From the NCBI GenBank assembly GCA_965205335.1, contig OZ242164.1, positions 864,001 through 928,000 on the forward strand: DNA of 64,000 nucleotides. The letters are read 5' to 3'. This stretch comes from Candidatus Woesearchaeota archaeon (GTDB lineage: Archaea; Nanobdellota; Nanobdellia; Woesearchaeales; UBA583). A model generated the notes under the pieces. It was given only the letters and a program-made list of their open reading frames with translations, had not been told where the DNA came from and made no database searches. Positions 2-27,747 of the stretch are shown here, piece by piece. Each line of letters opens with the position of its first letter. Position 1 is the stretch's first letter. The position numbers and the translations under genes are program-made.

Positions 2-949
2 TCAAGCAGTCAAAGGACAACTACTTGATTTTTTAAATTGCTCCAAATTTCCCCAATTTTTCTTTTTATAATTCCATGTGGTAAATTTCAGCCGTATATC
101 AATGTGTATGAACTCGGCTTCCTTGTTCACTCCCATACCTTTAAAACCATATTTGCGAGCAGAACATATAAATGCTTTCATTTTTTCATAACTCCACCCC
201 CTGGTACTGATATCAACCGCTGTTCCTCTTAAATGTTCGGAATTCCTGGCATCCGACACATCATCGTTATGTTTGGGGGATCTATAGGCACTGTTGATGA
301 TAAGTGGTTTATTCAAACCAATGTCTTGGTGCACTGCTTTAAGTTTGGACCATACAATATCTCTGACTCCCTCATACCTCTTTCCGGGTCTTTCATCAGT
401 GTAACAACCTCTATTGCAGTTGCAACTCACCACACATTCGCTTAATTTTATCATGCCTCCTCTCTCTATCTCATCCTTTATTTTCTCTTTATTTGTATTC
501 GTCTTATCCTCATCCTTCCTATCCTCATCTGTCCTGTCCCCATCAGTCCTATCTTTATCCGCCCTATTCTCATTTAATAAATTCTTGAACTTCTCATGTA
601 ATTTACCACCGCAACCTAAATTTTCTTTCTTTTCATTATCTATATCAGAACTATCACATTGCTTAAAATACTTTTCCCACATTTCCCATCTCTTAAAATC
701 TTTCTCCTCACAACTCTTCTCTAAAAGCATATCCTTAGTACATCTTTCAATATTACACAACTTATCTGTTCTCTCGCACTTCTCAATTGCCAAAGCTTGG
801 GAAGGAGTTAAAATAACATTAGGAGAATCCTGAAAGAACTTACCAACAACTAAAATTATAACTAAAATAACCACTCCTATAATGATTAGTTCTATAACCT
901 TTTGAAGGGACAACTCAACAGCTTTTTTATTACCTATTGGGCTTCTCAT
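2..949 (-). CDS. Class III signal peptide (pilin-like) protein with C-terminal peptidase M15A (YcbK/D-Ala-D-Ala peptidase-like) domain
   Basis: N-term NKKA|VELSLQKVIELIIIGVVILVII; C-term SAYRSPKHN, SEHLRGTAVD and FIHID (H/D/H Zn ligands); Cys-rich and DxDRT low-complexity linker. Confidence 0.85.
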   Translation of the reverse strand: MRSPIGNKKAVELSLQKVIELIIIGVVILVIILVVGKFFQDSPNVILTPSQALAIEKCERTDKLCNIERCTKDMLLEKSCEEKDFKRWEMWEKYFKQCDSSDIDNEKKENLGCGGKLHEKFKNLLNENRADKDRTDGDRTDEDRKDEDKTNTNKEKIKDEIERGGMIKLSECVVSCNCNRGCYTDERPGKRYEGVRDIVWSKLKAVHQDIGLNKPLIINSAYRSPKHNDDVSDARNSEHLRGTAVDISTRGWSYEKMKAFICSARKYGFKGMGVNKEAEFIHIDIRLKFTTWNYKKKNWGNLEQFKKSSSCPLTA

Positions 950-957
950 CTTAAACT

Positions 958-2439
958 CTATCCCTTAATCACTTCAAAAGAATGGAAATATCTTCTAATC
1001 TTCCCGTGGATTTTAGCTTCAATTTCCAAATCAGGAATCTTAATATCTCCTAAAATACCTTTCTTATTCACAAGTGCAAACCCAATAATTCTTGAATCAT
1101 TCTTTTCAAACCTCTTAAAATTCCAGACTAATTTGAACTGATTTCTCCCCTTCATAACATGATTTGGTTCAGTTAATAAAAAAGAATTATCCCTAATCTG
1201 AAGATACCCAGGCATTCTAAAAATAATCTTCAACAAATCAATCTCGGATTCCTTTATATTTTCAAACCCAATTTTAACCTTCATACTTTTAACACCCTCA
1301 TGCTCAACTTTCTCAACTTCATAAATATCAGTTTCAACATCTAAAGGATTTGATGATTTTCTAATATACCAATAAGTTGCAACACATAAAACAATTAAAA
1401 CCAAAAGATAAAGTGTCAGATAATTAACTGAATAAGTTATAGATTTAGTCTCCCCTTTTTCCAGAGGAATGTTAAATTTTATTCCCTTGTCTGTTTTTTC
1501 ATAATTATCCGAACCTGATGATGAAAATAAGAATCTTTCAAAAAACCCAAGTTTTACATCCCTAACATAAGTATCAAAAACATTACCATTATTTGTTACA
1601 GTAATCATAACCTCATCTTCAAGAAAATTTGATTTAGGTTCAACAACTTCATTTATTTGCCTAATTTCTACAACATTTATTAAACTATTCGCAAACCATT
1701 CTTGAGCAGTGTTTGTATTATTCTCTGTGTGTCTAATAATAACTCTCGCCTCGTACTCCTTTGGATCAATCTTAGGAGATATTTCTGCCTGATAAACTTT
1801 ATAATTTAAAGATTTTGAAAAAGTATCATCAAAGTTCGCAATCTCATGTTCACCTAATTCTACTCTTACATTAACTGAAATTTCCTCTCCCATATTTTTT
1901 ACTTCAATAGTATAATCCAAAGGAGATGCAGGGGACACATCACTTACTGCAAATCTTGGATTAAAAATTATTGGAACAGAATTAGGTTTCTCGATTTTAA
2001 CACGGAACTTCACTAAAACTTCTTCATTTTTTCCTACTACCTTAATAGGAAGATCAAATTCCCCATTATACTCATTATCCTGAGAAATAATTATCTCCTC
2101 AGGGGAAATAACATCAGTACTGTAATCAAACTCTGAATTAGCACTATAACTAAAAGTAATCAGCTTTTTTTTGTTAATTCCTAAATTGAATGTTTTATAA
2201 TTTACTTCAGTATCCCATCCTTTCTGATCAAAAATTACAACTTCAAAGTTCTGAGAAGAATCCAAATTATTATTAACTTCAAGTGCGAATTCTCCATTAA
2301 TATCATCATTAAATACAATACTTTCCTGAGTTTCAATTACTACAGAAAAATCTCCATTTTCATTCAAAGTTATAGCAAAAGCACTACAAATGCCAAATAA
2401 AATCACAAAAAATGTAATAATAAAGGATTTAAAAATCAT
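958..2439 (-). CDS. Exported/membrane-anchored beta-rich protein (signal peptide, Ig-like repeats, one internal TM helix)
   Basis: Start moved to ATG 2439 (MIFKSF..SAFA), preceded by a GGGGAG SD inside the tfb 3' end; TM YLTLYLLVLIVLCVATYWY. Confidence 0.65.
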   Translation of the reverse strand: MIFKSFIITFFVILFGICSAFAITLNENGDFSVVIETQESIVFNDDINGEFALEVNNNLDSSQNFEVVIFDQKGWDTEVNYKTFNLGINKKKLITFSYSANSEFDYSTDVISPEEIIISQDNEYNGEFDLPIKVVGKNEEVLVKFRVKIEKPNSVPIIFNPRFAVSDVSPASPLDYTIEVKNMGEEISVNVRVELGEHEIANFDDTFSKSLNYKVYQAEISPKIDPKEYEARVIIRHTENNTNTAQEWFANSLINVVEIRQINEVVEPKSNFLEDEVMITVTNNGNVFDTYVRDVKLGFFERFLFSSSGSDNYEKTDKGIKFNIPLEKGETKSITYSVNYLTLYLLVLIVLCVATYWYIRKSSNPLDVETDIYEVEKVEHEGVKSMKVKIGFENIKESEIDLLKIIFRMPGYLQIRDNSFLLTEPNHVMKGRNQFKLVWNFKRFEKNDSRIIGFALVNKKGILGDIKIPDLEIEAKIHGKIRRYFHSFEVIKG

Positions 2440-3382
2440 TTTCTCCCCCTTCCTCTTCTTTTGATTTAGCTTTAATTTTTTTAATCTCATCTTCTAAATT
2501 TAATTTAGAAATTATTTCTTTATATCTGTTTCGTATAGTAACCTCCGTAACTCCTGAAACATCTGAAATATCTCTTTGGGTTTTCCTCTCTCCTTCAAGT
2601 AAGCCTGCGATGTATAAAGCCGCTGCTGCAATTCCTATAGGACCACGGCCAGAAGTTAATTCAAGAGATAAAGCCTTTGATAGAATCTCAACAGCTCTTG
2701 ACTGGGTTCCAGCCCCATAATTTAGAACAGATGCAAATCTTGATATGTAATCTACCGGATTTGAAGGCAAAATCTTAATTCTAAGTTCTCTTGTAATATA
2801 ACGATAAGACCTTCCGATTTCTTTTTTATCAATTCCGGATGCTTCCGCGATCTCATCTAATGTTCTGGGGATATTTTGTCTTCTGCATGCTGCATATACC
2901 ACACCTGCTACAACAGATTCAATACTTCTCCCCCTAACTAAGTTTTTCTGAACAGCTTCAGTATACACCTTTCCTGCTTCCTCTTCAATTGAGGATGGTA
3001 GATTCAGAAAAGATGATAACCTCCTAAGTTCTCCTAATGCAATTTTAAGATTCTTTTCCATAACTGTTGAAAGTCTCTTCTGCCACCTCTTTAATCTCTG
3101 AAGCTTATATCTTTGTTTCTTATCCAGAGAAAAAGCATCTGATTCAGAACCAATTGCAGTTCCCATACCCAAATCAAACTTAGTATATGATGTAGGTGCA
3201 CCAGACCTTCTCATCTCGGAATCATCACTTTCTTCAAAATCCCTCCATTCCTTTCCAAGCGAAATATTCTTTCCATCAATTAGAAGCCCACAACTTCTGC
3301 ATATTATTTCTCCCTTATCCTTGTTGTTGTAAAGATTAGAACTTGCACACTCAGGACATTTTTTAATATTATCTCCACTCAT
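2429..3382 (-). CDS. tfb: Transcription initiation factor IIB
   Basis: Zn ribbon CPECxS..GEIICRSCG, EWRDF B-reader, two cyclin repeats, GVTEVTIRNRYKE. Confidence 0.98.
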   Translation of the reverse strand: MSGDNIKKCPECASSNLYNNKDKGEIICRSCGLLIDGKNISLGKEWRDFEESDDSEMRRSGAPTSYTKFDLGMGTAIGSESDAFSLDKKQRYKLQRLKRWQKRLSTVMEKNLKIALGELRRLSSFLNLPSSIEEEAGKVYTEAVQKNLVRGRSIESVVAGVVYAACRRQNIPRTLDEIAEASGIDKKEIGRSYRYITRELRIKILPSNPVDYISRFASVLNYGAGTQSRAVEILSKALSLELTSGRGPIGIAAAALYIAGLLEGERKTQRDISDVSGVTEVTIRNRYKEIISKLNLEDEIKKIKAKSKEEEGGENDF

Positions 3383-7539: not shown

Positions 7540-8421
7540 ATGGCTTTTTTAGCAGATAGTTTTGATAGATTTGGAATAGACATAGCAGGATTTTTAAGTG
7601 ATGAGTATTTTGTTATTGGTTTATTGTTTATTGCATTTCTTCTTGGAACTTTTGCTATGTTTAAGGGTCTTTTAAGATTTTCATTCAAAAATTCTGGTCA
7701 GTTTCAGAAAAAAGAAATAAATGTTATTGCATTAATGCTATCAATTATTAGTTCTGCTGGGATTTTCTTTATTTTCAGAGATAGCCCTTCTACAATGATT
7801 TATCTCTTTGGGGGATTTGGTGGTTTGTTTATTGTAATGTTTTTGATAATCTTTTTGATGCATACAATGTATACATTTGCAGAACATTTTAAGGATGAAG
7901 ATGGTCTTTTGGGCAAGGGAGTTGGATGGATTTTCATAATGTCTTTAGGAGTTGTTCTTAGTAGTTATCTGCTTCTTGGATATTCAAATCAAGTTATAAA
8001 AGGACTTACGAACAGTGGTTTATTTAGCTGGATTTCTAATATAGTTGGTGTTGTTACTGAACTTGCATTACTTGCTGCAATTATTTTTGGTTTTATATGG
8101 CTTTTTAAAGGCAATGGTTCGGAAAATAATGATAGTAATGCACATCCCTCATCTGATAATGATTCAGGAGAAGGAATTTTTGGTATTTCAAAGAAGAAAC
8201 AGAAGAATAGAAAGGATGCTGGGGAGATTAAAGGTGTTATGGGGGATATGGTAAAAGGGATTCAAAGGGCAGACAGTGCATTTCGTGAAAAACAGGAAAA
8301 GTTGCAGGAATTAAGTAGAATGGTTCAAGCGCAAGCAGATAACTCTCTTCCTCAACAAAACGAGCAACAAGAAGGAAGTTCTCAAGGAGGTGAAAATAAT
8401 GGAAGTAATCAAAGTGGTTAG
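7540..8421 (+). CDS. Multi-pass membrane protein with charged C-terminal tail (paralog of 11805..12596)
   Basis: About 5 TM segments; FKNSGQFQKKEINVIALMLSIISSAGIFFI aligns with FKSHQKEANVISIMISLISTTGMFFI. Confidence 0.75.
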   Translation: MAFLADSFDRFGIDIAGFLSDEYFVIGLLFIAFLLGTFAMFKGLLRFSFKNSGQFQKKEINVIALMLSIISSAGIFFIFRDSPSTMIYLFGGFGGLFIVMFLIIFLMHTMYTFAEHFKDEDGLLGKGVGWIFIMSLGVVLSSYLLLGYSNQVIKGLTNSGLFSWISNIVGVVTELALLAAIIFGFIWLFKGNGSENNDSNAHPSSDNDSGEGIFGISKKKQKNRKDAGEIKGVMGDMVKGIQRADSAFREKQEKLQELSRMVQAQADNSLPQQNEQQEGSSQGGENNGSNQSG

Positions 8422-8448
8422 TTGTGAATTAGGAGGTGATTTTTGAAA

Positions 8449-11740: not shown

Positions 11741-11804
11741 TTTTATTGATTAATCCTAAGAAGTGAAAGCAAATTTTTATAAGTCATTAAGATAAGGAAA
11801 GGAT

Positions 11805-12596: not shown

Positions 12597-12597
12597 A

Positions 12598-13641: not shown

Positions 13642-13784
13642 CATCTCAAAGAGAGCAGTAAGTTTGGGATGTTGAAGTTTCAACGTCTATTTCTGTTAAG
13701 GTTAATAATAATGAAAATAAAAATGATTACTAATGAGTAGTTAAAAAGGAAAGATTTATAAATAAAAGTCTCTTACTCCTTTAC

Positions 13785-14507: not shown

Positions 14508-14871
14508 AATAATTAATTCTATAATTCTTTAGATAATGTAATTCTTATAGTGGAATCTTTTAATAAGTATTACCATAATTTTACAGTGCAAGATAACTAA
14601 ATTTATAAGAAAATATCTTATAAATTTTATCCTTCTCAGAAATAAGTAAATCAATAAATAAAGAGACAGTGTTTTTGAAAAAACAAAACTATGGATATAT
14701 TTTTACATATAAAATTGATTATGTACATACAATTAGGATAGAGTCTCTCTTTAATAAAATTATGTCAGAAAAGGCACTTAATTGTTTGCTTAAATTTATC
14801 CTTACTTGGAAGTAACAAATACAAAAGCTTTATAAATAATAAGATATTATTACTATTTAACAGTAAAGAAA

Positions 14872-16871: not shown

Positions 16872-16895
16872 AAGTTAGAAAGAGGAAAAAATAAA

Positions 16896-19800
16896 ATGAA
16901 AAAACAATTACTACTGATGCTGTTTGCAATCTTATTATCTTTAGGATTTGCATTTGCTTCAGAGACACAAGGTGAACAATATCATGTTTTCCAGATGAAC
17001 TTTGCAGATGAAGTTCCAAATTCAGTATTTGTAACAGGTGGAGAATGTGCCAATACTCTGTGTAGTACATTTAAACCATCATCACAAGTTGAAGTGTACA
17101 ATGGCGCACAAGCATTTGAATGTGACAGATTATATTCAAATAATGTGAATGACTTCAAATCATGTATGGCGAGAGCTAAACTGAGTTCAAACATTCATCC
17201 AATACAAAATAATGGAGATTATGTTGCAGTTAAAGTTAATATACCTAACAATTATGCATTTGGACACTTACTATGGTTCTCAACAGAAGGAGACACATAC
17301 ATACCTTGGTATGCTCAGGTAACATATGACTGTTCAGGTGGAGAAGTATGTTTTTATCCAGCGGCAAGTAGCAAGGGAAATGCAACAGACATTAACTTTG
17401 ACAAATTTCAAAGAATTGCAATTGCTGAAGTAAGTCAAGTTAACATAAAAAACCTTGACGATGACACAAAACCAATTCAAATAGAGGTTCCAGTTCAAAT
17501 AGAAGAAACTGTTTGTTCAGCTTATAGAGCAGCTAATGGTAACTATGAAGTTCCAAACTTCCCCCAAGGATACTCTGATCTTAGTGCTAACACAAACATT
17601 AAACTAACTATTAAAAACAATCATAACAGCGAAGTGCTATTAACAGAAGATGTTAACTTACCTATTGAAGCAGACACATGTGCAGCGCTTCATGCATTTA
17701 CATGGACTCCTCCAGAAGATTTACTTGACACAGAAATTAAATTTAGAGTGGAAACAGATGTTGTTGACAAACAAGTAAGTGAGTCCAAAAAAGACTTCCA
17801 CGAAGTAATTGAAACAATCTACCCAGAAGACCTTACCGGACAATGTTGGAGTAGAGCTTACGATTTAGTATTAACAAATGATCCATATGAAGAATTATCA
17901 ACAAGTATAGTTGAAATAACTAAAGGAGAGAAAGTATATGCAATATTTAATGCAGGAACATGGAAAGGTAATGAAATAACTCCTCTTGAAACATCTTGGC
18001 AAATTAAATTTAACAGTACAGTAGTTAAAGAGGGAGAATTTCAGACTCAAACAAATGATGTGCAGAAAATTACAGTTGATCTAACAGAGGCTATCTCAGT
18101 TGTTGATGCAGGAAATTATAGAGTTCAATTAATAACAAGAGCATCAAGTACTCAGAATTGTGATGTGAGTGTACCTGTAGTTCAGAATGTGAACTTAGAC
18201 GTTCGTGAAATTGATATGTTTGAAGTTGAATTTGAAGTAATGGAAGAAGGAGACCAATACAACAAAATAGATGGAGCAAACATTAGCTTAGTATTAACCG
18301 AGTCTCACGAGTACTTTGCAAGCAAACCAGAATATGACAAAAGTCAAACAACTGACACGCAAGGAAAAACTACATTTAACGAAGCTACAAGAGGAGAATA
18401 CACGTACACAATAACAAAAAGTGGATTCCAGAGAGTTACAAACAATGTAATTGTTGGTTCAGACACAACGGTAACAATCTCTCTACCAAAAAATAACAAT
18501 GCACCTACAATTGATTTACCTCACAACAGAACAGTAGATATTAAGAGCACATTAGAACTAGATTTAGAAGATTATGTACATGACTTTGAAGATGCATTTA
18601 GTGATTTAAATCTTAGCGTAAGAAAAGCATCAGGAAACGCGCAAGTGCAAATAGAGAACTCAAAATTAATAGTAAAAAAGAATTCAGTTGGAAATGTTGA
18701 CCTTGAAGTAACAGTAACTGACAGTCAAGGGGCATCAGCTAGTGATTCAATGTTAGTTAGTTTCATTGATAACAATGCTCCTGTAATTAATTCATTTGTT
18801 GCAAATCCTACTAACGGAGATGCTCCATTTACAACTACATTTGAAATAGATGTTCATGATGCTGATGGAGATACTCTAAGATGTACTATAAACTATGATG
18901 ATAGAAGTACAAATAAAGAAGGTAACTGTGATGAAATTGATGGAATAACTCACACATACAACACAGTTGGAACATACAATGTAGTTTTAACAGTAAGTGA
19001 TGGCAAAAATGATCCTGTTAAACAAACTGAGCAGGTATTTGTATTTGAAAGAAACTACTCATCACCTCATATTGGGTTTTTCACATTAGAATCAAGCAAT
19101 GGTGATTATATACCAACTGATTTAACATTAGTTTGGGAAGTAACTCACCCTGACAACCTTGATACAAAATGTTTCCTTAGAATTAATGGAGTTTCAGAGA
19201 GCGTTAATTGTAAAGATACAAAGAATATAAACAACTTTGACAGATTAGGAGAATCCAGATTCATATTGCTTGCAGATGATGGGGAACACCAAGTATCAAG
19301 AAAACACATTAAAGTATTTTATAGAGAAGAAGATGAGGAAAACACACCACCAGTAATTGATGAATTCACAGTTAATACAACAAAAAGCACATTAGGTATG
19401 ATTGCACAATTTACCACAGCAGTATCAGATGCTGATGGAGATAGTTTAAGATGCTCTATTAACTTTGGAGATGGAGTTACAATACAAGACTCAGAATGTG
19501 ATCCATTAAGAAGTGTAGAACATCAATATAATGGAGTAGAAGACTTCACTGCAATATTTAGTGTAACAGATGGAGTAGACACAACATCAGAATCTATTAC
19601 AGTTGCATTAGAAGAAGATAAAGTAGAAGTGAATAACACACCTCCAGTAATTGAAGAATTCACAGCAGATCCAACAGAAGGCTCGGTAGGAGTGGAAGTA
19701 ACATTTACTACAAGAGTATCAGATGTTGATGAAGATAGTTTAAAATGTTCTATTGACTTTGGAGATAGCGTTACAGAAGATGATACATACTGTACATTTT

Positions 19801-21446
19801 TAGAAACAATAAAACATCAATACAACAGTTTAGGAACATACACCGCAACATTTAATGTAACAGATGGAACAGACACAGCATCAGAATCTATTACAATCAC
19901 AGTAACTGATGAGGAAAACTCACGTCCAGTAATTGAAGAATTCACAGCAGATCCAACAGAAGGCTCAGTAGGAGTGGAAGTAACATTTACTACAAGAGTA
20001 TCAGATGTTGATGAAGATAGTTTAAAATGCTCTATTGACTTTGGAGATGGAGTTGCAGAAGATGACACATATTGTGTCTTCTTAGAAACAGTAGAACATC
20101 AATATAACACTGTGGGAACATTCACTGTAAGATTTAGTGTAACAGATGGGACAAACACAGTCTCAGAATCTATTGCAATCAATGTAAGAGAAAACAACGC
20201 ACCTGTTATAAACCGATTTGAAGCAAGCCCTAGCGGAGGACGTTCACCTCTTATTGCTTCATTTTATGTGGACGTAACTGATTCAGATGGAGATAGTGTA
20301 TCATGTAGAATTGATTTTGGAGATGGAACATTATCACATCAGGATGATTGTTACTTATTAAATGGAGTGACTCACCAATACATAGGAATTGGTAAATATA
20401 CTGCAAAATTAGTTGCAGAAGATGAGTTTGGTAAGGAAATTTATGCAACAGAAACAATTAGAGTAATATCTCAAGAACCTTTAGTTGAGTTCTTTACTCT
20501 AAGCACATCAACAGGAAGTTATATCCTTCCAAATGACATAACACTGCAATGGAAAGCAACTCACCCTGATGAAGTGCCAGTTACATGTGACTTAATAGTT
20601 AACGGTGCTAAAACATCTAATGTTGGATGTCAGAACTCAAAAACACTCTCAAACTACAATGTTGAAGGAACTGCAAAATTCGAGATAGTTGTAAGAGATG
20701 GATATGGAAACTCAGATAGCAAGAGCATTGAACAATTATTTGCGAAAGTTCCGTTAACTCATGAAAATTTAGACTTGGAAATTGACTCTGTAATTGAACC
20801 GGGAGATTTCAGATTCTACTTAGAAGTTAGTGACGAGAGTATTGCAAGAAGACAATTGTACTTAGAACCACAAATCAGATGTAATGGAGTTACAAGCCCG
20901 CTATCTAACAGCAGAAAATTAGAAACTTCCGCTAAATCAAGTGTATACATTGGTTCAGTTACAAGATTTGAATTTATAACAAATACACTTGATTACCGTT
21001 CAAATATTCCAAAAGAAACTCAGTGTGTATTCTCTGTAAGAGTTACAGACAAATATGGAACAGACCTTGAGTTAAATGAGGATGTAAGATTTGAATACGG
21101 AGTGGGTCAGACTCAAATCCAATCAATTAGAGGAAGTGGAACTGACATTGCAAATTACATGCAAACAGCTCTTAGTGGCAATATTGAACCAGGATTTAAT
21201 TCAGTAGAGTTCAATTTGATAAATAATGAAGTAGAGGACAAAAGAATTACAGTCTCACTATTGAGCAGAGAACTTGGAATCAATTATGTATTGGATAGAA
21301 GATTAGAACCAGATACATTACTGAGAGTTCAAATTCCAATATACATTTCAGATAATGTAGAATCAGGAATGTATCCTGTTAGAATTAGTTTCACTGATGA
21401 AAACGAAGGAAGACAAACAAGATACACTTACATAAACATTGAATAA
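16896..21446 (+). CDS. Large surface protein with PKD/Ig-like repeats and a carboxypeptidase-regulatory-like domain
   Basis: Signal peptide ..GFAFA; repeated IDFGDG..HQYN..GTYTA.F.VTDG PKD motifs; 1516 aa. Confidence 0.85.
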   Translation: MKKQLLLMLFAILLSLGFAFASETQGEQYHVFQMNFADEVPNSVFVTGGECANTLCSTFKPSSQVEVYNGAQAFECDRLYSNNVNDFKSCMARAKLSSNIHPIQNNGDYVAVKVNIPNNYAFGHLLWFSTEGDTYIPWYAQVTYDCSGGEVCFYPAASSKGNATDINFDKFQRIAIAEVSQVNIKNLDDDTKPIQIEVPVQIEETVCSAYRAANGNYEVPNFPQGYSDLSANTNIKLTIKNNHNSEVLLTEDVNLPIEADTCAALHAFTWTPPEDLLDTEIKFRVETDVVDKQVSESKKDFHEVIETIYPEDLTGQCWSRAYDLVLTNDPYEELSTSIVEITKGEKVYAIFNAGTWKGNEITPLETSWQIKFNSTVVKEGEFQTQTNDVQKITVDLTEAISVVDAGNYRVQLITRASSTQNCDVSVPVVQNVNLDVREIDMFEVEFEVMEEGDQYNKIDGANISLVLTESHEYFASKPEYDKSQTTDTQGKTTFNEATRGEYTYTITKSGFQRVTNNVIVGSDTTVTISLPKNNNAPTIDLPHNRTVDIKSTLELDLEDYVHDFEDAFSDLNLSVRKASGNAQVQIENSKLIVKKNSVGNVDLEVTVTDSQGASASDSMLVSFIDNNAPVINSFVANPTNGDAPFTTTFEIDVHDADGDTLRCTINYDDRSTNKEGNCDEIDGITHTYNTVGTYNVVLTVSDGKNDPVKQTEQVFVFERNYSSPHIGFFTLESSNGDYIPTDLTLVWEVTHPDNLDTKCFLRINGVSESVNCKDTKNINNFDRLGESRFILLADDGEHQVSRKHIKVFYREEDEENTPPVIDEFTVNTTKSTLGMIAQFTTAVSDADGDSLRCSINFGDGVTIQDSECDPLRSVEHQYNGVEDFTAIFSVTDGVDTTSESITVALEEDKVEVNNTPPVIEEFTADPTEGSVGVEVTFTTRVSDVDEDSLKCSIDFGDSVTEDDTYCTFLETIKHQYNSLGTYTATFNVTDGTDTASESITITVTDEENSRPVIEEFTADPTEGSVGVEVTFTTRVSDVDEDSLKCSIDFGDGVAEDDTYCVFLETVEHQYNTVGTFTVRFSVTDGTNTVSESIAINVRENNAPVINRFEASPSGGRSPLIASFYVDVTDSDGDSVSCRIDFGDGTLSHQDDCYLLNGVTHQYIGIGKYTAKLVAEDEFGKEIYATETIRVISQEPLVEFFTLSTSTGSYILPNDITLQWKATHPDEVPVTCDLIVNGAKTSNVGCQNSKTLSNYNVEGTAKFEIVVRDGYGNSDSKSIEQLFAKVPLTHENLDLEIDSVIEPGDFRFYLEVSDESIARRQLYLEPQIRCNGVTSPLSNSRKLETSAKSSVYIGSVTRFEFITNTLDYRSNIPKETQCVFSVRVTDKYGTDLELNEDVRFEYGVGQTQIQSIRGSGTDIANYMQTALSGNIEPGFNSVEFNLINNEVEDKRITVSLLSRELGINYVLDRRLEPDTLLRVQIPIYISDNVESGMYPVRISFTDENEGRQTRYTYINIE
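19350..20180 (+). repeat. Three tandem PKD-domain DNA repeats (units start 19350, 19644, 19926)
   Basis: ccagtaattga(t/a)gaattcacag at each unit; units 2 and 3 nearly identical over most of their length. Confidence 0.85.
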
Positions 21447-22797: not shown

Positions 22798-24048
22798 ATG
22801 AAAGATTTTGAAATACTCAAAGGAACAAAGGATTCCTCATTTAGTGAACAGATTAAAATCAACGAGATATTACAGACAATAAGAACCAATTTTGAAAAAT
22901 ATGGATTTAGACCCTTTGATACTCCAAGCATTGAATATATGGATACTCTAATGAATAAATACAAAGAAGACGATGAAATTGTTCAGGAGATATTTAAAGT
23001 AAAAGATAGAGGAGATAGGGATTTAGGTTTAAGATATGATTTAACTGTTCCTCTATGCCGTTATATTGCATCTTCAAAACAGCCCAAACTTCCATTTAAA
23101 AGATATGCAATTGGAAATGTGTTTCGAGATGGTCCTATTAAATCAGGTAGATTAAGAGAATTTACCCAGTGCGATGCAGATATTATAGGTATAAAGGATA
23201 TTTGCGCAGAAGCTGAAACTCTTAAAATGTTTTATGATACATATAAAGAAATTGGAATTGATGCAGTAATTGAACTAAACAATAATAAAATCTTAAGAGG
23301 GGCTTTATTACAGGAGGGATTTAAAGAAGAGGAATTGCAGGGATTAATCTTAAGCATTGACAAATTGAAAAAAATAGGCGAAAGAGGAATTCTTGATGAA
23401 ATCAAACAAAGAAATTTAGATGAGAACAAAGTTAAATCAGCCATTTTCACCCTATCATTAAAAACATTTGAAGAACTTGACAAGAAAGCATCCAATAACG
23501 AACTAAATGAAGGAATATCCCAATTAAAAGAACTAGTTAAATATCTTGATAATTTGAAAGTTAAATACAGACTTAATTTCTCAATGTCAAGAGGGCTTGC
23601 AATTTATACTGGTAATATTTGGGAAGCATACGACACTAAAAAAAGAATTGAATCTTCAATTGGTTCTGGTGGGAGATATGATAAGATAATTGGGGATTAT
23701 ATACAAGATGGGCGGGAGTATTCTGCATTTGGAGTTTCATTTGGTTTGGCTCCTATTCTAAAATGCATTAAATCAGAAGACAATAAAATTAGTAATACAG
23801 AGATTTTAGTTGCTCCGTTAAATTCAAATGAAAAATTGATAAACACTGCATTAAACTTAGCTCAAAATCTAAGAGGAAAGGGTAAAAACACAGAAATATG
23901 TTATGATTTCAAGTTAAAAAAAGCATTTGATTATGCGGATTACATAGGAGCAAAAGAGCTTGCAATAATTGGCAGAAAGGACTTAGAGAAAGAAGTTTAC
24001 ACATTAAAAAATCTTAGTACAAAAGAAGAAAAAGAAGTTAAATTATAA
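22798..24048 (+). CDS. hisS: Histidine--tRNA ligase
   Basis: LRYDLTVP, GRLREFTQCDAD, GSGGRYD, anticodon-binding C-terminal domain. Confidence 0.97.
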   Translation: MKDFEILKGTKDSSFSEQIKINEILQTIRTNFEKYGFRPFDTPSIEYMDTLMNKYKEDDEIVQEIFKVKDRGDRDLGLRYDLTVPLCRYIASSKQPKLPFKRYAIGNVFRDGPIKSGRLREFTQCDADIIGIKDICAEAETLKMFYDTYKEIGIDAVIELNNNKILRGALLQEGFKEEELQGLILSIDKLKKIGERGILDEIKQRNLDENKVKSAIFTLSLKTFEELDKKASNNELNEGISQLKELVKYLDNLKVKYRLNFSMSRGLAIYTGNIWEAYDTKKRIESSIGSGGRYDKIIGDYIQDGREYSAFGVSFGLAPILKCIKSEDNKISNTEILVAPLNSNEKLINTALNLAQNLRGKGKNTEICYDFKLKKAFDYADYIGAKELAIIGRKDLEKEVYTLKNLSTKEEKEVKL

Positions 24049-24159
24049 TCATTATTTTCTAAAGTTAATTGTGTTTTTCTTGGCTTTAGATGTTCATTTT
24101 CGTCCGATTAATTTATAAATAAGAAAGCATTTACTTAGAATAGTAACAAGTAGATACTA

Positions 24160-26475
24160 TTGAAAGTGACAAATCAAGACAATTCTAGAGAAGAAGGACA
24201 AGAGAATTTAGAAGAGAAAATAGGGCTCTTTGGTAAATTCAGAGGACGAGGGAAGAAGAAAAAAGCAATAGTTGATGTGAGTTTTATGTCTTTACCAGGT
24301 CATAAAATTAATCTCAATGAAGGAGGAGGTGTTGATATTAATTCTGAAGAAGGTAAGGGTGTATCTTTGAAAATTCACAAAGAGAGGGGAAAGACTAGTA
24401 TTAATCCTACAGATGATCCGAACATTGCACATGTAAATTCTGATAGAGAGACTATTTTTGAGTCTTCTTTCCCTGGCATGGATGTTTTTGTTGGTAAAGG
24501 AGGGAATCGTTTTAAACCTATTGATGATAGAAATATTTCTTTTAACCTATTAGACAGGATGTTTTTGAATTTTGGTGGTAATATGAAAAATTATTTTCTT
24601 GCTAGACCTACATCCAGAAAAGGTATAAATTATATCATTAATGGTGTGATTGGGGTGGTTGAAGCTATCATTCCAAGAGGTGGAGGATTGCTTACTAAGT
24701 ATGGTGAGAAGGATACTAAATTAGTTCCTGTCTCCGAGTCAGGTACATCTGTTGAAGTAGGTAAGGAAGTTAAGGTGGTTGTTCCAAAAGATAGAGGATT
24801 GCTTACTAAGTATAGTGAGAAGGATACTAAATTAGTTCCTGTCTCCGAGCCAGGTACATCTGTTGAAGTAGGTAGGAAAGTTAAGGTGGTTACTCCAAAA
24901 AGAAAAAATTTATCTGCGAAATTTGGAGGAGATGGTACTGATACAATAAGTCCCACAGATAATTCTGTTCCAGTTGTTAATGCAGGTAGAGAATTTGAAG
25001 CTAGAACTTTAGAGGAGGAGATATTATCAGTGGAACTTGGCAGGAATTGGGCTATATTTAGACCTAAAGGCAAAGGGGATGATAACCCATCTGTAACTTT
25101 GCATGATAAGATAGAAGTTACGCCTCTGAAAAGTAGAGGTATAATTTGGAATGTGATAAAGAAAGGAAGATCAGCGGTGGTGACCGCTGAACCTATAAAA
25201 AAGGGAGGAAAATTTCTTAGAATGCCCAATGGAATACTTAATCTTAATAATTTTAAATATAAGTTGAGTGATGGGGGAATATTTGATTTTAATAAAGAAA
25301 AATGGAAGAAAAGATGGGTTAAAGGACTTTCTTTGATGGTATTAGGTAGCGCATTAGCAGGCGGAGTATTAAAATATCAATACCTAATGAATAATAATGA
25401 AGGGAGTTCTCCACAACAACCTCGTTCCAAGCGATTTGATAGTATACCAGAATTAGTAGAGGCAAATGGTATTTATATTTATCATAAGGGTGCTTTTGAT
25501 AGATGGACAGATGTCTGGTATGATATTAATACATCGCAAGGATTGTGTGAAAAAGATACTTATGTAACAGATAGAGTAAAAAGCAGACATCTTCTAGTAA
25601 GACTTGATGGGCGTGTCCCAAGGATTGTAAATACAAATGGGAACAATCAGAAAGAGAAAAAAAACCGAGGAAGAATGGTAGTTTCTCGTGAGATTCTAAT
25701 GAATTATGATTTGAGAATAGGTCATGGAGGAGATTTTGTTCTCCCTATAAGAAAAGGTGAACAAGGATATCCTTTTGCATTATATTGTAATGGAAGTAAA
25801 ATGGGAAAAGCAGTTGAGAGGTATCTTTCAGGAACGATACCACCTAATCAATGGTGGAAGGGGGCAGGATTGAAGAACAAGGAACTTAAATATGGTTCAG
25901 CATTTGAAGGAATTTTTAAAGATTTTAAAGATAATGAGGGAAATCCTACACTGCCCCAAGAACTTACACACTTACTTAAAGCACAAGCACTTGTTGAGAG
26001 TAGATTTATACCAGAGTCTATATCTCCTTCTGGTGCGAGGGGAATTCTGCAATTATTAAGAGGTACTCTTAGTCATTATGGTGTCAAGAGAGAGAATGAT
26101 TTTAAAATCCCTTATCAAATCAGATGTGCTTATGCACACTATGAAGATAAAATTAAGGAATTCAAACGATCATTGGGAGATATAAGAGCATCTGATGAAG
26201 ACAAAGCAAAACTTGCACTTTATTTAGCGATGCAGGCATATCATAGTGGGGAAGGTAATGTAAGTGGGATATTAAAAAAACCAGAATCAAAAGGAATCTT
26301 AGAAAAACTATTATCTGAAAACAGAAGTCCTCAAGAAGTAGTGCATGGATTGATAATATCAAATTATGGATTTGGAAAAATTTCTAATCGCAAAATAGGA
26401 GAAGAGTCCATAAATTACTTACCAAAGATCTTTGCCGCAGAAAGATTTCTATCAGAGAATGAATTGAGAAAGTAG
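24160..26475 (+). CDS. Membrane-anchored lytic transglycosylase (SLT family) with long N-terminal extension
   Basis: Catalytic ALVES, SGARGILQL, QAYHSGEGN, NYLPKI; TM GLSLMVLGSALAGGVL near aa 390. Confidence 0.85.
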   Translation: MKVTNQDNSREEGQENLEEKIGLFGKFRGRGKKKKAIVDVSFMSLPGHKINLNEGGGVDINSEEGKGVSLKIHKERGKTSINPTDDPNIAHVNSDRETIFESSFPGMDVFVGKGGNRFKPIDDRNISFNLLDRMFLNFGGNMKNYFLARPTSRKGINYIINGVIGVVEAIIPRGGGLLTKYGEKDTKLVPVSESGTSVEVGKEVKVVVPKDRGLLTKYSEKDTKLVPVSEPGTSVEVGRKVKVVTPKRKNLSAKFGGDGTDTISPTDNSVPVVNAGREFEARTLEEEILSVELGRNWAIFRPKGKGDDNPSVTLHDKIEVTPLKSRGIIWNVIKKGRSAVVTAEPIKKGGKFLRMPNGILNLNNFKYKLSDGGIFDFNKEKWKKRWVKGLSLMVLGSALAGGVLKYQYLMNNNEGSSPQQPRSKRFDSIPELVEANGIYIYHKGAFDRWTDVWYDINTSQGLCEKDTYVTDRVKSRHLLVRLDGRVPRIVNTNGNNQKEKKNRGRMVVSREILMNYDLRIGHGGDFVLPIRKGEQGYPFALYCNGSKMGKAVERYLSGTIPPNQWWKGAGLKNKELKYGSAFEGIFKDFKDNEGNPTLPQELTHLLKAQALVESRFIPESISPSGARGILQLLRGTLSHYGVKRENDFKIPYQIRCAYAHYEDKIKEFKRSLGDIRASDEDKAKLALYLAMQAYHSGEGNVSGILKKPESKGILEKLLSENRSPQEVVHGLIISNYGFGKISNRKIGEESINYLPKIFAAERFLSENELRK
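24671..24892 (+). repeat. 111-bp imperfect tandem duplication (37 aa) in the SLT N-terminal extension
   Basis: GLLTKY(G/S)EKDTKLVPVSE(S/P)GTSVEVG x2. Confidence 0.9.
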
Positions 26476-26484
26476 TTAATAAAA

Positions 26485-27747
26485 ATGGATAATAAAAACC
26501 TTTACAGTAAAATAAAAAAATATGGAGCTTCGGCAGGACTGCTGTTTGGGCTCTTTTTAGGAGGTTGTGATTACAATTTTCATGATAAAAATAACTCTTC
26601 AGATGCTCAAACTAATAAAGTTACAAAAACCCTTCCTTTAGAGTATTCCAAAAGACATCCATCAATACAAGCCTTAATTAAAGATAGAGGTGTTGAATAC
26701 TACCCTCCTAGTTCTTTTCAAACATGGACTCATTCATTAGTTGATATTTGTACAGGCACAGGTATTTGCTCAAAAGACGAATATAAGAGGCAAAGGTACA
26801 GACGAGTTTTTATAAGACTTGATGGAAAACTTGCAGGAACTGTAAATAGTAATACATTACCAGCAAGTATTAGAGGAGGTCAGCCCAGACGATTTAATGA
26901 AACAGAATGGAAACAAGTTGACGTGAGAATTAAAAGTGGACATGATTATGTTATTCCTTTTAATCAAGGTGATAAAGGATATCCATTTGGATTTAAATGT
27001 AATGGAAACATATTAAGAATCGGAATTGAGAGATACCTAAGGGGAGATATTAGAGGAGAGTATGGAGAATATGGGGAATATAATGTAGATTTTTACGAAG
27101 CATCATGGGGTGTTTATGTTGAAAATGGATTTCGGAAAAGAGGGATATTGCCAGAAGAGATATTTTATATAGTTAATGGTATGGCAAATGTTGAGAGTAA
27201 TTTCCTAAGAAGTGCAGAAAATAGTTCAACGGGTGCAAGGGGAATACTTCAACAGATGCCCAAAACTCTTCAAGATTGTGGAGTTCCTCAAAGTATGCAT
27301 AAAGATAGACTTGCTCAACTTGATTGTGCTTATAGATATTTTGAAGATAGATTTTCTCATTATGAACCACTAATAAATAATATAAAGATTAGTTCAGAAC
27401 AAAGAAATGAATTCTTGCTTTATCTGGCTGTTCAGGCTTATCATACAGGACAAGGTAATATAGAAAAAATATTAAAAGACCCAGAATCAATTAAAATTGC
27501 AAATAGATTTGTAGAAGAAGGAAGAGACCCTATTGAAATAGTACATGGGTTAACGATATTAAATTATGGACTTGGAAATAATGGGACTAAGGTAGGATTA
27601 GTATCTAGTTCTTATCTTCCCAAAGTAATAGCATCAGTTAGAATCTTAGAAGAAGTTAGACGAAAAAGAAGAAAAGAAGGGAATAGGATTAAAGGATATT
27701 CACTCCCTCCTCTACTCTTTCCTGAAGAAGAGGAAGGTAATAAATAA
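26485..27747 (+). CDS. Lipoprotein-like lytic transglycosylase (SLT family), paralog of the upstream gene
   Basis: Lipobox-like LFLGG|C; ANVES, TGARGILQQ, QAYHTGQGN, SYLPKV. Confidence 0.85.
   Translation: MDNKNLYSKIKKYGASAGLLFGLFLGGCDYNFHDKNNSSDAQTNKVTKTLPLEYSKRHPSIQALIKDRGVEYYPPSSFQTWTHSLVDICTGTGICSKDEYKRQRYRRVFIRLDGKLAGTVNSNTLPASIRGGQPRRFNETEWKQVDVRIKSGHDYVIPFNQGDKGYPFGFKCNGNILRIGIERYLRGDIRGEYGEYGEYNVDFYEASWGVYVENGFRKRGILPEEIFYIVNGMANVESNFLRSAENSSTGARGILQQMPKTLQDCGVPQSMHKDRLAQLDCAYRYFEDRFSHYEPLINNIKISSEQRNEFLLYLAVQAYHTGQGNIEKILKDPESIKIANRFVEEGRDPIEIVHGLTILNYGLGNNGTKVGLVSSSYLPKVIASVRILEEVRRKRRKEGNRIKGYSLPPLLFPEEEEGNK

What the first reader, a model, noticed from the sequence alone, without database searches (positions are those of the whole stretch)
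2..27747. Complementary peptidoglycan-attack toolkit suggests an archaeal symbiont or predator of bacteria
Seen: within 28 kb, one peptide-cleaving (M15A) and two glycan-cleaving (SLT) enzymes, each with a different surface-targeting signal (class III, internal TM, lipobox-like), plus a 1516-aa PKD adhesin-like protein and orphan secreted proteins. No peptidoglycan synthesis gene is in the window. Known: cultivated DPANN symbionts have archaeal hosts, and lysozyme-fold enzymes do not cleave pseudomurein. Inference: this organism attaches to and breaches, or scavenges, bacterial walls. The genes are not one operon, so a single system is a hypothesis.
Basis: inference. Interest (0 to 1): 0.8.

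Follow-up and report, generated by a model that had tools for sequence, protein, structure and literature searches.

The report
Swappable bacterial-wall cutters in DPANN archaeon
A tiny archaeon that cannot build a bacterial-type cell wall carries four membrane-bound enzymes that cut such walls, one of them at a fixed genome position where sister species carry other wall-cutting heads, which fits the already published idea that these archaea attack or feed on bacteria.

Summary
The enzymes are real. The window lies in a single-contig 1.2 Mb Nanoarchaeota/Woesearchaeota-type genome with no Mur ligase or PBP. It encodes one M15_3 (LAS) metallopeptidase and two tandem SLT lytic transglycosylases with intact catalytic motifs and matching predicted folds. 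A third SLT lies 68 kb further on.

They are not one system. Housekeeping genes separate them. The PKD protein and the TM/AAA part of the orphan block recur in a sister species that has neither SLT nor M15.

The new result concerns the M15 gene. It fills a slot just downstream of a conserved membrane-protein gene in 20 of 20 genomes of the genus. The slot protein keeps an N-terminal anchor plus Cys-rich module, while its C-terminal head varies: M15, Amidase_2, muramidase, SLT, M23, VgrG3-like. Of 67 database proteins with this module, 48 carry a peptidoglycan-hydrolase domain and none carries another enzyme family over its Pfam cut-off.

The SLT pair is an insertion between hisS and eif2g. Outside this genus its relatives were found only in Marinobacter-type Gammaproteobacteria.

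Attack on bacterial walls by Woesearchaeota is already published (Castelle 2021, Vigneron 2022, Strock 2025). Host, activity and expression remain untested.

The parts
2..949 (-). Slot protein, 315 aa. Layout: N-terminal KKA motif, TM at residues 18-36, Cys-rich module (about 58-113), low-complexity linker, and a C-terminal M15_3/LAS zinc peptidase head (about 166-300; H239, D246, H282).
   Evidence: Pfam. PHROG endolysin family phrog_894, E 1.6e-20. PDB sequence match to 1lbu. AF2 model with pLDDT 81-92 across most of the domain (residues 191-290). Foldseek top hit 1lbu at 2.9e-5, followed by L-Ala-D-Glu endopeptidases and endolysins. Invariant residues.
958..2490 (-). p510, a conserved membrane protein of unknown function. 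It has TM segments at 24-42 and 358-376 and a conserved C-terminal domain. It lies 8 nt upstream of the slot gene on the same strand.
   Evidence: No Pfam family. Hydropathy. Found in 20 of 20 genus genomes and in 119 of 151 genomes of the order (this tally includes the unpublished genomes G121 and G132).
2429..3382 (-). TFB gene, the upstream neighbour of p510. It ties the locus to core archaeal genes.
   Evidence: Pfam TFIIB, E 1.7e-43. TFB was also seen upstream of p510 in G201 and G158.
24160..26475 (+). SLT771. Layout: basic N-terminal region of 388 aa with tandem repeats, TM-like segment at 389-404, a GYPF/Cys N-domain, then an SLT domain (E613-S614, GILQL 628-632, AYHSG 693-697).
   Evidence: PHROG 'lytic tail protein' family, E 9e-9.
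26485..27747 (+). SLT420, the tandem paralogue of SLT771 (37% identity over 346 aa). It has a lipobox-like LGGC at 25-28, an N-domain at 55-215 and an SLT domain (E237-S238).
   Evidence: AF2 model with pLDDT 74.9 and pTM 0.77. Foldseek top hits are MltF, MltD, MltE, MltC and Slt.
22798..24048 (+). hisS, the left flank of the SLT insertion.
   Evidence: Pfam. In G201 hisS is followed directly by eif2g. One independently built contig bridges NFACT, hisS and the start of SLT771 with 0 mismatches in runs X1 and X2.
27932..29146 (+). eIF2-gamma gene, the right flank of the SLT insertion.
   Evidence: Pfam. Synteny.
27760..27890 (.). MITE-like repeat of about 128 bp with terminal inverted repeats, between SLT420 and eif2g. 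Contigs break here.
   Evidence: Depth 221 against 6-9 in the flanks. 52 blastn hits across the genome.
16896..21446 (+). PKD-repeat surface protein, 1516 aa, signal peptide, net charge -135. It is not linked to the hydrolases.
   Evidence: A 39%-identical homologue sits in the same position in G201, which lacks SLT and M15.
7540..13641 (+). Orphan module of five genes: 5-TM protein, 444-aa protein, AAA ATPase, 5-TM paralogue, 353-aa protein. It is not linked to the hydrolases.
   Evidence: The first four genes have homologues in the same order in G201; the 353-aa protein had no G201 match at E <= 1e-5.

Best explanation
This is a DPANN (Nanoarchaeota/Woesearchaeota-type) archaeon that lacks the tested peptidoglycan-synthesis genes. 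It displays murein hydrolases on the outer face of its membrane, and they act on the walls of bacteria it touches.

Locus 1 (TFB, p510, slot gene) encodes a protein with a conserved N-terminal anchor plus Cys-rich stalk. Its C-terminal catalytic head has been exchanged repeatedly among species of the genus. In this genome the head is a LAS/M15 zinc peptidase that would cut the peptide stems. In sister species it is an amidase, a muramidase, a lytic transglycosylase, an M23 endopeptidase or a VgrG3-like lysozyme.

Locus 2 is a tandem pair of lytic transglycosylases that would cut the glycan strands. They were taken once from, or share one origin with, a family otherwise found only in Marinobacter-type Gammaproteobacteria. 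They sit as an insertion between hisS and eif2g.

Shown: gene presence, intact motifs, folds, anchors, distribution and synteny. Inferred: export topology, activity on peptidoglycan, and the ecological purpose. I rank the purposes as breaching a host or prey wall first, killing competitors second, and scavenging third.
For: Genome context
- One contig of 1,199,749 bp, 95% complete, 0.97% contamination. Named eIF2-gamma relatives are Nanoarchaeota, Woesearchaeota or Nanoarchaeia.
- No hits for Mur_ligase_M, PBP transpeptidase, Amidase_2, M23, NlpC/P60, GH25 or Amidase_3 in this genome. The inventory is therefore 3 SLT plus 1 M15_3.

Enzymes
- Catalytic residues are invariant.
- Folds match the lytic transglycosylases MltF/D/E/C and Slt, and the Zn DD-peptidase 1lbu plus phage L-Ala-D-Glu peptidases.

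Slot
- p510 is present in 20 of 20 genus genomes, and the next same-strand ORF starts -49 to +82 nt after it.
- Heads of the other 19 by Pfam: Muramidase 8, SLT 3 (one of them with M23 as well), M23 alone 1, Amidase_2 1, weak VgrG3_C-like 2, none 4.
- Three of the four 'none' proteins are 37-49% identical in their best pairings (29% at the weakest) to the two weak-scoring SLT-type slot heads, those of G209 and G214.
- All 22 slot proteins have an N-terminal TM. C58 and C70 are near-invariant.

Module in the wider database
- A profile of the N-terminal module finds 207 representatives at E <= 1e-3, always at the protein N-terminus among the 150 listed.
- I scanned 67 of them. 48 carry one of 7 peptidoglycan-hydrolase families, and none carries another enzyme family over its Pfam cut-off.

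SLT pair
- It is absent between hisS and eif2g in G201.
- Its family is in 5 of 19 sister species, with one weak match (E 9.3e-6) among the 21 genomes searched from other families of the order.
- All 80 kept loci from 185,579 species genomes are Pseudomonadota, mostly Marinobacter.
- The archaeal rows form one side of a branch with support 98/97.

Assembly and divergence
- GC of the hydrolase genes (0.33-0.36) equals that of their neighbours.
- An independent contig bridges hisS and SLT771.
- Relatives with 97.5% and 93.1% identical eIF2-gamma have SLT homologues only 48% and 69.5% identical, and an M15 homologue 53% identical.
Against: - Nothing here shows activity, export or expression. No RNA run was listed as holding the locus.
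- None of these proteins has a known wall-binding domain, and the genome has no LysM or PG_binding_1.
- An enzyme tethered to the archaeal membrane cannot reach the periplasmic wall of a Gram-negative cell without crossing the outer membrane. Yet the closest relatives of both enzyme types come from Gram-negative bacteria or their phages.
- The Marinobacter-type family is itself uncharacterised. The one bacterial member scanned did not reach Pfam SLT at E <= 1e-5.
- Branches in the tree are very long and the root is unknown, so the direction of transfer is inferred from distribution only.
- The rapid-divergence argument rests on contig lengths shared by database proteins. I could not see those contigs, so orthology is unverified.
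- All cultivated DPANN hosts known to me are archaea (recalled; YN1 with Sulfurisphaera appears in the listing).
Confidence: 0.7

Rival explanations
1. Scavenging. The hydrolases digest free wall debris from dead bacteria to supply amino sugars and amino acids to a biosynthetically poor cell. No living partner is involved.
For: The genome is small at 1.2 Mb. The glycan-cutting and peptide-cutting activities are complementary. Published proposals describe a DPANN 'shunt' that recycles microbial biomass.
Against: There is no AnmK to use the 1,6-anhydroMurNAc that lytic transglycosylases produce. There is no amidase in this genome. The enzymes are membrane-tethered rather than freely secreted. 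Repeated head swapping and fast divergence look more like a conflict with living, varying targets than like digestion of a uniform polymer.
Confidence: 0.15
2. Substrate other than bacterial murein. The lysozyme-fold and LAS-fold domains act on the archaeon's own surface glycans or peptides, or on the envelope of an archaeal host.
For: No wall-binding domain was found. The LAS fold also occurs in non-wall proteins such as Hedgehog. All cultivated DPANN have archaeal hosts (recalled).
Against: Seven different families, all specific for murein bonds, alternate on the same N-terminal module, and no other enzyme family over its Pfam cut-off does: 48 of 67 carry such a family. The set includes MurNAc-L-Ala amidase, M23 and M15, which cut bonds involving D-amino acids or MurNAc. 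The genome has no Mur ligase or PBP, so there is no self murein or pseudomurein to remodel.
Confidence: 0.08
3. Passenger genes. These are remnants of phage, plasmid or conjugative elements (endolysin, VirB1-like SLT) with no role for the archaeon.
For: The M15 head matches phage endolysin families and 409 phage records. A MITE-like repeat abuts SLT420. The third SLT sits next to a HerA/DUF87-type ATPase.
Against: Both window loci are flanked by housekeeping genes: Trm5/TYW2, TFB, hisS and eif2g. GC is fully ameliorated. Catalytic residues are conserved. The heads are fused to an archaeal anchor module and kept at one locus in 20 of 20 species. SLT420 has no phage match.
Confidence: 0.05
4. 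Assembly or binning chimera. Bacterial genes were joined by mistake to an archaeal contig.
For: Contigs built independently from the runs break inside SLT771 and at the repeat before eif2g.
Against: The genome is a single 1.2 Mb contig. A 4734-nt independent contig spans NFACT, hisS and the SLT771 start with 0 mismatches in two runs, and depth is even across the region: 8.7/6.3/6.0 and 4.4/3.8/3.9. The breaks coincide with an internal tandem repeat and a 52-copy repeat. GC is 0.33-0.36. The same slot is filled in 19 other genomes.
Confidence: 0.02

Closest known systems
Murein-like lytic transglycosylase proteins of Woesearchaeota and Pacearchaeota (fam00969 of Castelle et al. 2021, PMC8204110; GH23 genes of Vigneron et al. 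2022, PMC9723730)
   Same: The same archaeal radiation, the same SLT/GH23 domain, extracellular placement, and the same inference of action on bacterial walls. In my sample of the order, 123 of 201 genomes carry an SLT domain.
   Different: Those papers describe large SLT proteins, up to 3000 aa. In the passages I read they do not describe a fixed locus with exchangeable heads, an M15 partner, or a Marinobacter-type subfamily. Here the proteins are 315-811 aa. M15_3 is rare: 6 of 201 genomes of the order. I could not test membership of fam00969, and supplements are closed.
Woldo and Danwoldo, secreted peptidoglycan hydrolases of Halogranum salarium, and the archaeal PGH survey of Strock et al. 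2025 (PMC12352652)
   Same: Archaeal hydrolases aimed at bacteria. [quoted passage not shown]
   Different: There the retained module is a known wall-binding domain (PG_binding_1) with a Tat signal, and killing was demonstrated. Here the retained module is an N-terminal membrane anchor plus Cys-rich stalk with no known binding domain, so their 'modular PGH' definition would probably miss these proteins. Nothing has been assayed here.
Phage M15 endolysins of Gram-negative hosts, and the Streptomyces albus Zn DD-peptidase (1lbu)
   Same: The same LAS fold and H-x6-D...H zinc site. Identity is 31-39% over residues about 162-299 among the 15 records listed, out of 409 phage records that match.
   Different: Phage enzymes are small, soluble and act from inside the cell. 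This one is fused to an archaeal N-terminal anchor and stalk of about 165 residues.
Family 1 lytic transglycosylases MltE, MltF, MltD and Slt
   Same: E-S catalytic motif and fold.
   Different: There is an extra conserved N-domain with a GYPF motif and two Cys, shared only with Marinobacter, Saccharospirillum, Ketobacter and similar proteins. The archaeal copies carry a lipobox-like or internal anchor.
Polymorphic toxins and T6SS wall-hydrolase effectors
   Same: A conserved N-terminal delivery part with interchangeable C-terminal enzymatic heads, fast divergence, and VgrG3-like heads among them.
   Different: All recognised heads target murein. No immunity gene is expected or was seen, because the producer has no murein. 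No injection apparatus is linked to the locus. This is a resemblance in logic, not membership.

Membership tests
Peptidase M15 / LAS zinc peptidases (Pfam PF08291 Peptidase_M15_3) | Profile match above the curated cut-off | tested here: met
   60.7 bits against a cut-off of 23.2. 63.3 bits in the genome scan.
Peptidase M15 / LAS zinc peptidases (Pfam PF08291 Peptidase_M15_3) | Zinc ligands H-x6-D and a downstream H | tested here: met
   H239, D246 and H282 are invariant in 7 sequences. The H and D align to the corresponding H and D of the 1lbu sequence; that these are its zinc ligands is recalled.
Peptidase M15 / LAS zinc peptidases (Pfam PF08291 Peptidase_M15_3) | LAS fold | tested here: met
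   The model has pLDDT 81-92 across most of the domain, residues 191-290. Foldseek gives 1lbu at 2.9e-5, then ChiX, RB49/T5 peptidases, LysECD7 and Ply500.
Peptidase M15 / LAS zinc peptidases (Pfam PF08291 Peptidase_M15_3) | Cleavage of a murein peptide bond, and which bond | not testable with these tools
   Needs an enzyme assay on muropeptides.
Family 1 lytic transglycosylases (Pfam PF01464 SLT, GH23) | Profile match above the curated cut-off | tested here: met
   36.2 and 30.9 bits against a cut-off of 21.3.
Family 1 lytic transglycosylases (Pfam PF01464 SLT, GH23) | Catalytic Glu in an E-S motif, plus the G-L/I-x-Q and A-Y-x-x-G motifs | tested here: met
   E237, S238, G253, Q256 and Q317-A-Y-H-x-G322 are invariant in 32 sequences. 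The equivalents in SLT771 are listed.
Family 1 lytic transglycosylases (Pfam PF01464 SLT, GH23) | Lysozyme-like fold | tested here: met
   The catalytic domain has pLDDT 90-97 over most of residues 251-360. The leading Foldseek matches, down to E about 1e-2, are all lytic transglycosylases; 21 hits fall at E <= 1e-3.
Family 1 lytic transglycosylases (Pfam PF01464 SLT, GH23) | Formation of 1,6-anhydroMurNAc products | not testable with these tools
   Needs LC-MS of digestion products.
Archaeal class III (prepilin-type) signal peptide | A [KR]-[GA] cleavage site directly followed by the hydrophobic stretch | tested here: inconclusive
   A KK[GA] motif lies before the TM in 13 of 22 slot proteins. 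Several residues, some charged, intervene. No class III family matched at E <= 1.
Archaeal class III (prepilin-type) signal peptide | A prepilin peptidase in the genome | tested here: met
   Two Peptidase_A24 matches above the cut-off.
Lipobox lipoprotein signal | L-x-x-C at the end of a short N-terminal hydrophobic region | tested here: met
   LGGC at residues 25-28. The Cys is conserved in P0002 and P0003. Lipidation itself was not tested.
Polymorphic toxin systems | Conserved N-terminal part with variable C-terminal toxic domains | tested here: met
Polymorphic toxin systems | A cognate immunity gene downstream, and linkage to a secretion apparatus | not tested
   I did not annotate the genes downstream of the slot for immunity genes; in G000 the next gene beyond it encodes Trm5/TYW2. 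I therefore file this as 'works like', not as a member.
DPANN fam00969 large murein-like LT proteins (Castelle 2021) | Membership of that protein cluster | not testable with these tools
   The family model is not available and supplements are closed.

The most novel reading that the evidence does not exclude
The slot protein is a host-range determinant. It is a membrane-anchored or pilin-like stalk (KK[GA] motif, with two prepilin peptidases in the genome) that presents an exchangeable murein-cutting head to the surface of a bacterial partner. Species of this Woesearchaeal genus swap heads (peptidase, amidase, muramidase, transglycosylase) to match the wall chemistry of different bacterial hosts or prey. 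On this reading the lineage would be a DPANN clade living on bacteria rather than archaea, and the head type would predict the host.
Probability: 0.2. Interest if true: 0.85.

Novelty: new variant of a known kind. Interest (0 to 1): 0.55.

Why it matters
Whether any DPANN archaea live on bacteria is still open. The published evidence consists of scattered lytic transglycosylase genes.

A locus kept in every sampled species of a genus, whose only variable is which murein bond its head cuts, is stronger comparative evidence that bacterial walls are a constant target of this lineage. It also gives concrete reagents for testing this: small ectodomains to express, and an N-terminal module that can be used as a search handle in metagenomes.

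It shows as well that surveys requiring a known wall-binding domain will probably undercount archaeal wall hydrolases.

The general idea is not new, and nothing here shows activity or a host.

Tried and rejected
- Expression: no RNA holder was listed for the locus.
- The protein-atlas search on the 474-aa orphan gave no usable hit. On the M15 N-terminal 165 residues it gave only sub-threshold hits, 0.79.
- The orphans at 7540-16871 stayed without a family in Pfam, PHROGs and NCBIfam, apart from an AAA domain.
- I first read M15 as a sporadic acquisition: M15_3 is in 6 of 201 genomes of the order and 3 of 20 of the genus. I also treated G201 as a hydrolase-free control. Both readings were corrected once the slot was found, because G201 carries Amidase_2 there.
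- p510 as a dedicated partner of the hydrolase: rejected. It is widespread in the order (119 of 151), and in other families it is not followed by a hydrolase. Of 20 loci fetched, one was too short. Pfam on 12 same-strand downstream ORFs (the first sizeable one in most of these loci) gave 0 hydrolases. The other 7 I read by eye only: 5 begin with what look like rpoH/rpoB, and 2 have only short ORFs. I therefore sent no complex-prediction job.
- Marinobacter gene context: a stand-alone gene among unrelated genes, so no functional lead.
- A TlyC/CNNM 'pore-forming toxin' homologue is present, but the same family rings in 12 of 14 control genomes, so it is uninformative.
- Literature on a fixed-locus head-swapping hydrolase in DPANN: searches found none. 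Two recent Nanobdellota/Woesearchaeota genome papers have 0 occurrences of peptidoglycan, murein, transglycosylase, lysozyme or muramidase. Supplements could not be seen and may list such genes.

Full report
**What is in the window**

- 2-949(-) encodes a 315-aa Peptidase_M15_3 protein (E 1.7e-16).
- 24160-26475(+) encodes a 771-aa SLT protein.
- 26485-27747(+) encodes a 420-aa SLT protein.
- 16896-21446(+) encodes a 1516-aa protein with five PKD stretches.
- Between 7540 and 16871 lies a run of ORFs without family matches, apart from one AAA ATPase.

These genes are interleaved with TFB, a KH protein, GyrA, NFACT-N, HisRS and eIF2-gamma. The rest of the window holds SecY, L15, an eRF1/Pelota-like protein, NAC and RadA-type genes. 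The window is G000:C1:864001-928000 of a single contig of 1,199,749 bp, rated 95% complete with 0.97% contamination. GC is 0.31. The closest named eIF2-gamma relatives, at 55-71% identity, are labelled Nanoarchaeota, Candidatus Woesearchaeota or Candidatus Nanoarchaeia.

**Are the enzymes intact?**

For M15:
- H239, D246 and H282 are invariant in a 7-sequence alignment.
- The H and D align to the corresponding H and D of the Streptomyces albus DD-peptidase 1lbu; that these are its zinc ligands is recalled.
- The best PHROG family is an endolysin family (E 1.6e-20).
- The AF2 model is confident across most of the catalytic domain.
- Its best Foldseek match is 1lbu (2.9e-5), followed by Hedgehog-N, ChiX, phage RB49/T5 L-Ala-D-Glu peptidases, LysECD7 and Ply500.

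For the SLTs:
- The E-S motif, G-x-x-Q and Q-A-Y-H-x-G are invariant in 32 sequences.
- The SLT420 model has pLDDT 74.9 and pTM 0.77.
- Its leading Foldseek matches are all lytic transglycosylases: MltF 5e-5, then MltD, MltE, MltC and Slt.

**Targeting signals**

M15 has one strong hydrophobic segment at residues 18-36 after a KKA motif. SLT771 has a moderate segment at 389-404 preceded by KKRW. This predicts a 388-residue basic cytoplasmic part and an external catalytic part (the topology is inferred from the positive-inside rule). SLT420 has L-G-G-C at 25-28, and the Cys is kept in its two archaeal relatives. No class III signal family matched the M15 N-terminus at E <= 1. The genome does encode two Peptidase_A24 homologues. 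The class III reading therefore stays open.

**Genome-wide inventory**

The genome has three SLT matches, the third at C1:959317-959589 and outside the window. It has one M15_3 match. The following families gave zero hits:
- Mur_ligase_M and Transpeptidase
- Amidase_2 and M23
- NlpC/P60 and GH25
- LysM, PG_binding_1 and Amidase_3
- AnmK

The organism therefore lacks both wall-synthesis families tested, carries four wall hydrolases, and lacks the kinase that recycles lytic-transglycosylase products.

**Is it a chimera?**

No. Besides the single contig, a 4734-nt contig built independently from public runs X1 and X2 spans NFACT, hisS and the SLT771 start with no mismatch. Depth is even across the region. 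The two contig breaks fall at an internal tandem repeat of SLT771 and at a repeat of about 128 bp at 27760-27890, where depth is 221 against 6-9. That repeat has 52 blastn hits across the genome. GC of the hydrolase genes (0.33-0.36) matches that of the neighbours. The genes just beyond the M15 gene, outside the window, are Trm5/TYW2, NifU and an MFS transporter, not phage genes.

**The SLT pair**

- The two genes are tandem paralogues, 37% identical over 346 aa, including a conserved domain N-terminal to SLT.
- A search of 5.8 billion proteins found only 6 relatives: the protein itself, two archaeal proteins, and three at 25-29% identity, one of them named as a Marinobacter protein.
- A scan of one genome for each of 185,579 species confirmed 90 of 94 candidates. 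All 80 kept loci are Pseudomonadota. Most are Marinobacter, with Saccharospirillum, Ketobacter, Cellvibrionaceae and Oceanospirillaceae as well.
- Among archaeal relatives the family is in 5 of 19 sister species. In two of these the match holds an in-frame stop. Among the 21 genomes searched from other families of the order there was one weak match, at E 9.3e-6.
- In a 32-row tree the six archaeal rows form one side of a branch (98/97), on very long branches. The root is unknown.
- In sister genome G201, hisS is followed after 48 nt by eif2g, so the pair is an insertion in this lineage.
- In Marinobacter the homologue is a stand-alone gene among unrelated genes. SLT420 has no phage match.

**SLT and M15 in the wider group**

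SLT domains occur in 123 of 201 sampled genomes of the order and in 14 of 20 of the genus. M15_3 occurs in 6 of 201 and in 3 of 20. The presence of SLT is therefore an ordinary trait of this radiation, as already published.

**The new point: a fixed slot with exchangeable heads**

The gene just upstream of M15, called p510 here (958-2490, two TM segments, no family), is present in 20 of 20 genus genomes. In all 19 others the next same-strand ORF starts -49 to +82 nt after it. That ORF again encodes an N-terminal TM followed by a Cys-rich stretch. Its C-terminal domain differs between species:

| Head | Genomes |
|---|---|
| Muramidase PF11860 | 8 |
| canonical SLT plus M23 | G040 |
| M23 alone | G158 |
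| Amidase_2 | G201 |
| weak SLT | G209, G214 |
| weak VgrG3_C-like | G203, G211 |
| nothing by Pfam | 4 |

Three of the four 'nothing' proteins are 37-49% identical in their best pairings (29% at the weakest) to the G209/G214 heads. G212 and G217 carry a second, shared C-terminal domain (58% identical between the two). I read it by eye as LAS-like; no search supports that. Counting this genome, 17 of 20 slots hold a clear murein hydrolase, 2 hold a weak one and 1 holds none.

A profile of the N-terminal 130 residues finds 207 cluster representatives at E <= 1e-3, always at the protein N-terminus among the 150 listed. I scanned 67 of the 150 listed. These were the hits with E <= 1.5e-5 and at least 200 aa; nine shorter ones were dropped.

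| Pfam family | Proteins |
|---|---|
| Muramidase | 22 |
| SLT | 13 |
| VgrG3_C-like (one above the cut-off) | 4 |
| Amidase_2 | 3 |
| M23 only | 3 |
| Glucosaminidase | 2 |
| M15_3 | 1 |
| DUF2272 only | 1 |
| weak MG280 | 1 |
| none | 17 |

That gives 48 of 67 with a murein-hydrolase family and none with another enzyme family over its Pfam cut-off. At least 11 of the 67 appear to be the genus proteins themselves, judged from equal length and equal Pfam scores.

A database protein, P0009, shares 81% identity with the first 125 residues of this M15 protein. Its C-terminal domain is different and is weakly Hedgehog/LAS-like.

Outside the genus, p510 homologues are common: 119 of 151 genomes. 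This tally includes two genomes flagged unpublished, G121 and G132, and no other claim rests on them. They are not followed by a hydrolase in the loci I checked. Pfam on 12 downstream ORFs gave 0 hits. Seven more loci were read by eye only, and one was too short.

**Fast divergence**

Database proteins that share a contig length, and so presumably a contig, show the following.
- One relative has eIF2-gamma 97.5% identical, its SLT420 homologue 48% identical and its M15 homologue 53% identical.
- Another has eIF2-gamma 93.1% identical and its SLT homologue 69.5% identical.

The order is discordant. This suggests allele replacement or strong diversifying pressure. I could not see those contigs, so this is an inference.

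**What is not part of it**

The PKD protein and the first four genes of the TM/AAA orphan module recur in the same order in G201, which has no SLT and no M15. The 353-aa protein and the three small orphans at 13785-16871 had no G201 match at E <= 1e-5. No wall-binding domain exists in the genome. The 28-kb grouping is at the edge of chance. The third SLT is an 811-aa multi-TM protein beside a HerA/DUF87-type ATPase, near LamG and DUF7287 genes. It may belong to a different apparatus.

**Possible targets**

The M15 head matches 409 phage records. The 15 listed are 31-39% identical over residues about 162-299. The named bacterial hosts in the summary and listed rows are Gram-negative Proteobacteria. 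The SLT family points to Marinobacter-type bacteria. By the nearest-homologue logic of Strock et al. this hints at marine or saline Gram-negative targets. An outer membrane would, however, shield their wall from a tethered enzyme, so the hint is weak.

**Literature**

I read passages, not whole papers.
- Castelle et al. 2021 (PMC8204110) proposed that LT proteins of Pacearchaeota and Woesearchaeota bind and degrade bacterial walls, and that some of these archaea may be episymbionts of bacteria.
- Vigneron et al. 2022 (PMC9723730) proposed predatory, 'vampiristic' Woesearchaeota on the basis of GH23 genes.
- Zhang et al. 2024 (PMC10936187) noted the same gene in DPANN from oxygen-deficient zones.
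- Strock et al. 2025 (PMC12352652) found modular PGHs in 175 of 3,706 archaeal genomes, prominent in Nanoarchaeota. They showed killing by two haloarchaeal enzymes and proposed repeated replacement of catalytic domains.

None of my searches found a description of a fixed locus with an anchor and stalk module and exchangeable heads in DPANN. Supplements were closed.

**Verdict**

The 'toolkit' framing is not supported. The added value is the head-swapping slot and the narrowly shared lytic-transglycosylase family. Function, export, expression and host remain untested.

Noticed in passing
window 27760-27890 (and 51 other places in G000:C1): MITE-like element of about 128 bp with terminal inverted repeats. 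It has 52 blastn hits genome-wide, and depth is 221 against 6-9 in the flanks in public runs. It causes contig breaks.
   Followed up: partly
window 7540-13641: Orphan module of five genes: 5-TM protein, 444-aa coiled-coil-like protein, 658-aa AAA ATPase, a 5-TM paralogue (27-33% identical to the first) and a 353-aa protein. The first four have homologues in the same order in sister genome G201. Function unknown.
   Followed up: partly
G000:C1:957334-959769 (L107:11335-13770), outside the window: A third SLT protein, 811 aa, with a multi-TM N-terminus and classic ES/GLMQ/AYNGG motifs. It lies beside a divergent HerA/DUF87-type ATPase on the other strand and downstream of LamG (794 aa) and DUF7287 genes. 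It may be part of a cell-to-cell transfer or pilus-like apparatus.
   Followed up: partly
window 958-2490 (-): The p510 family is a single-copy membrane protein with a highly conserved C-terminal domain of about 130 aa. It is present in 119 of 151 genomes of the order, a tally that includes the two unpublished genomes G121 and G132. It has no Pfam family. In other families it appears, by eye, to lie upstream of rpoH/rpoB.
   Followed up: partly
window 21506-22633 (-) and 46759-47583 (+): NFACT appears split into two genes 24 kb apart. One holds the N-terminal and middle domains (375 aa). The other holds the tail of NFACT_N plus NFACT-R_1 (274 aa).
   Followed up: no
window 24650-24870 (SLT771 residues about 176-245): Two near-identical tandem repeats of about 35 aa in the basic, presumably cytoplasmic N-terminal part of SLT771. 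Independent contigs break here.
   Followed up: no
protein P0009 (database, 321 aa): Its first 125 residues are 81% identical to this M15 protein, but it carries a different C-terminal domain with a weak Hedgehog/LAS-like match (E 0.0027). This looks like a recent head swap between close relatives.
   Followed up: partly
window 38457-40587 (-): BsaWI-type restriction endonuclease next to an N6/N4 DNA methylase. This looks like a type II restriction-modification pair, lying beside tRNA-Gly (40710-40781).
   Followed up: no
window 53673-54895 (+): Adjacent 2OG-Fe(II) oxygenase and Ofd1_CTDD-like genes. Together they look like a split Ofd1/Tpa1-type prolyl hydroxylase, which is unusual in archaea.
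   Followed up: no
window 59099-60013 (-): DDE_Tnp_1 transposase (IS element), the only transposase seen in the window.
   Followed up: no
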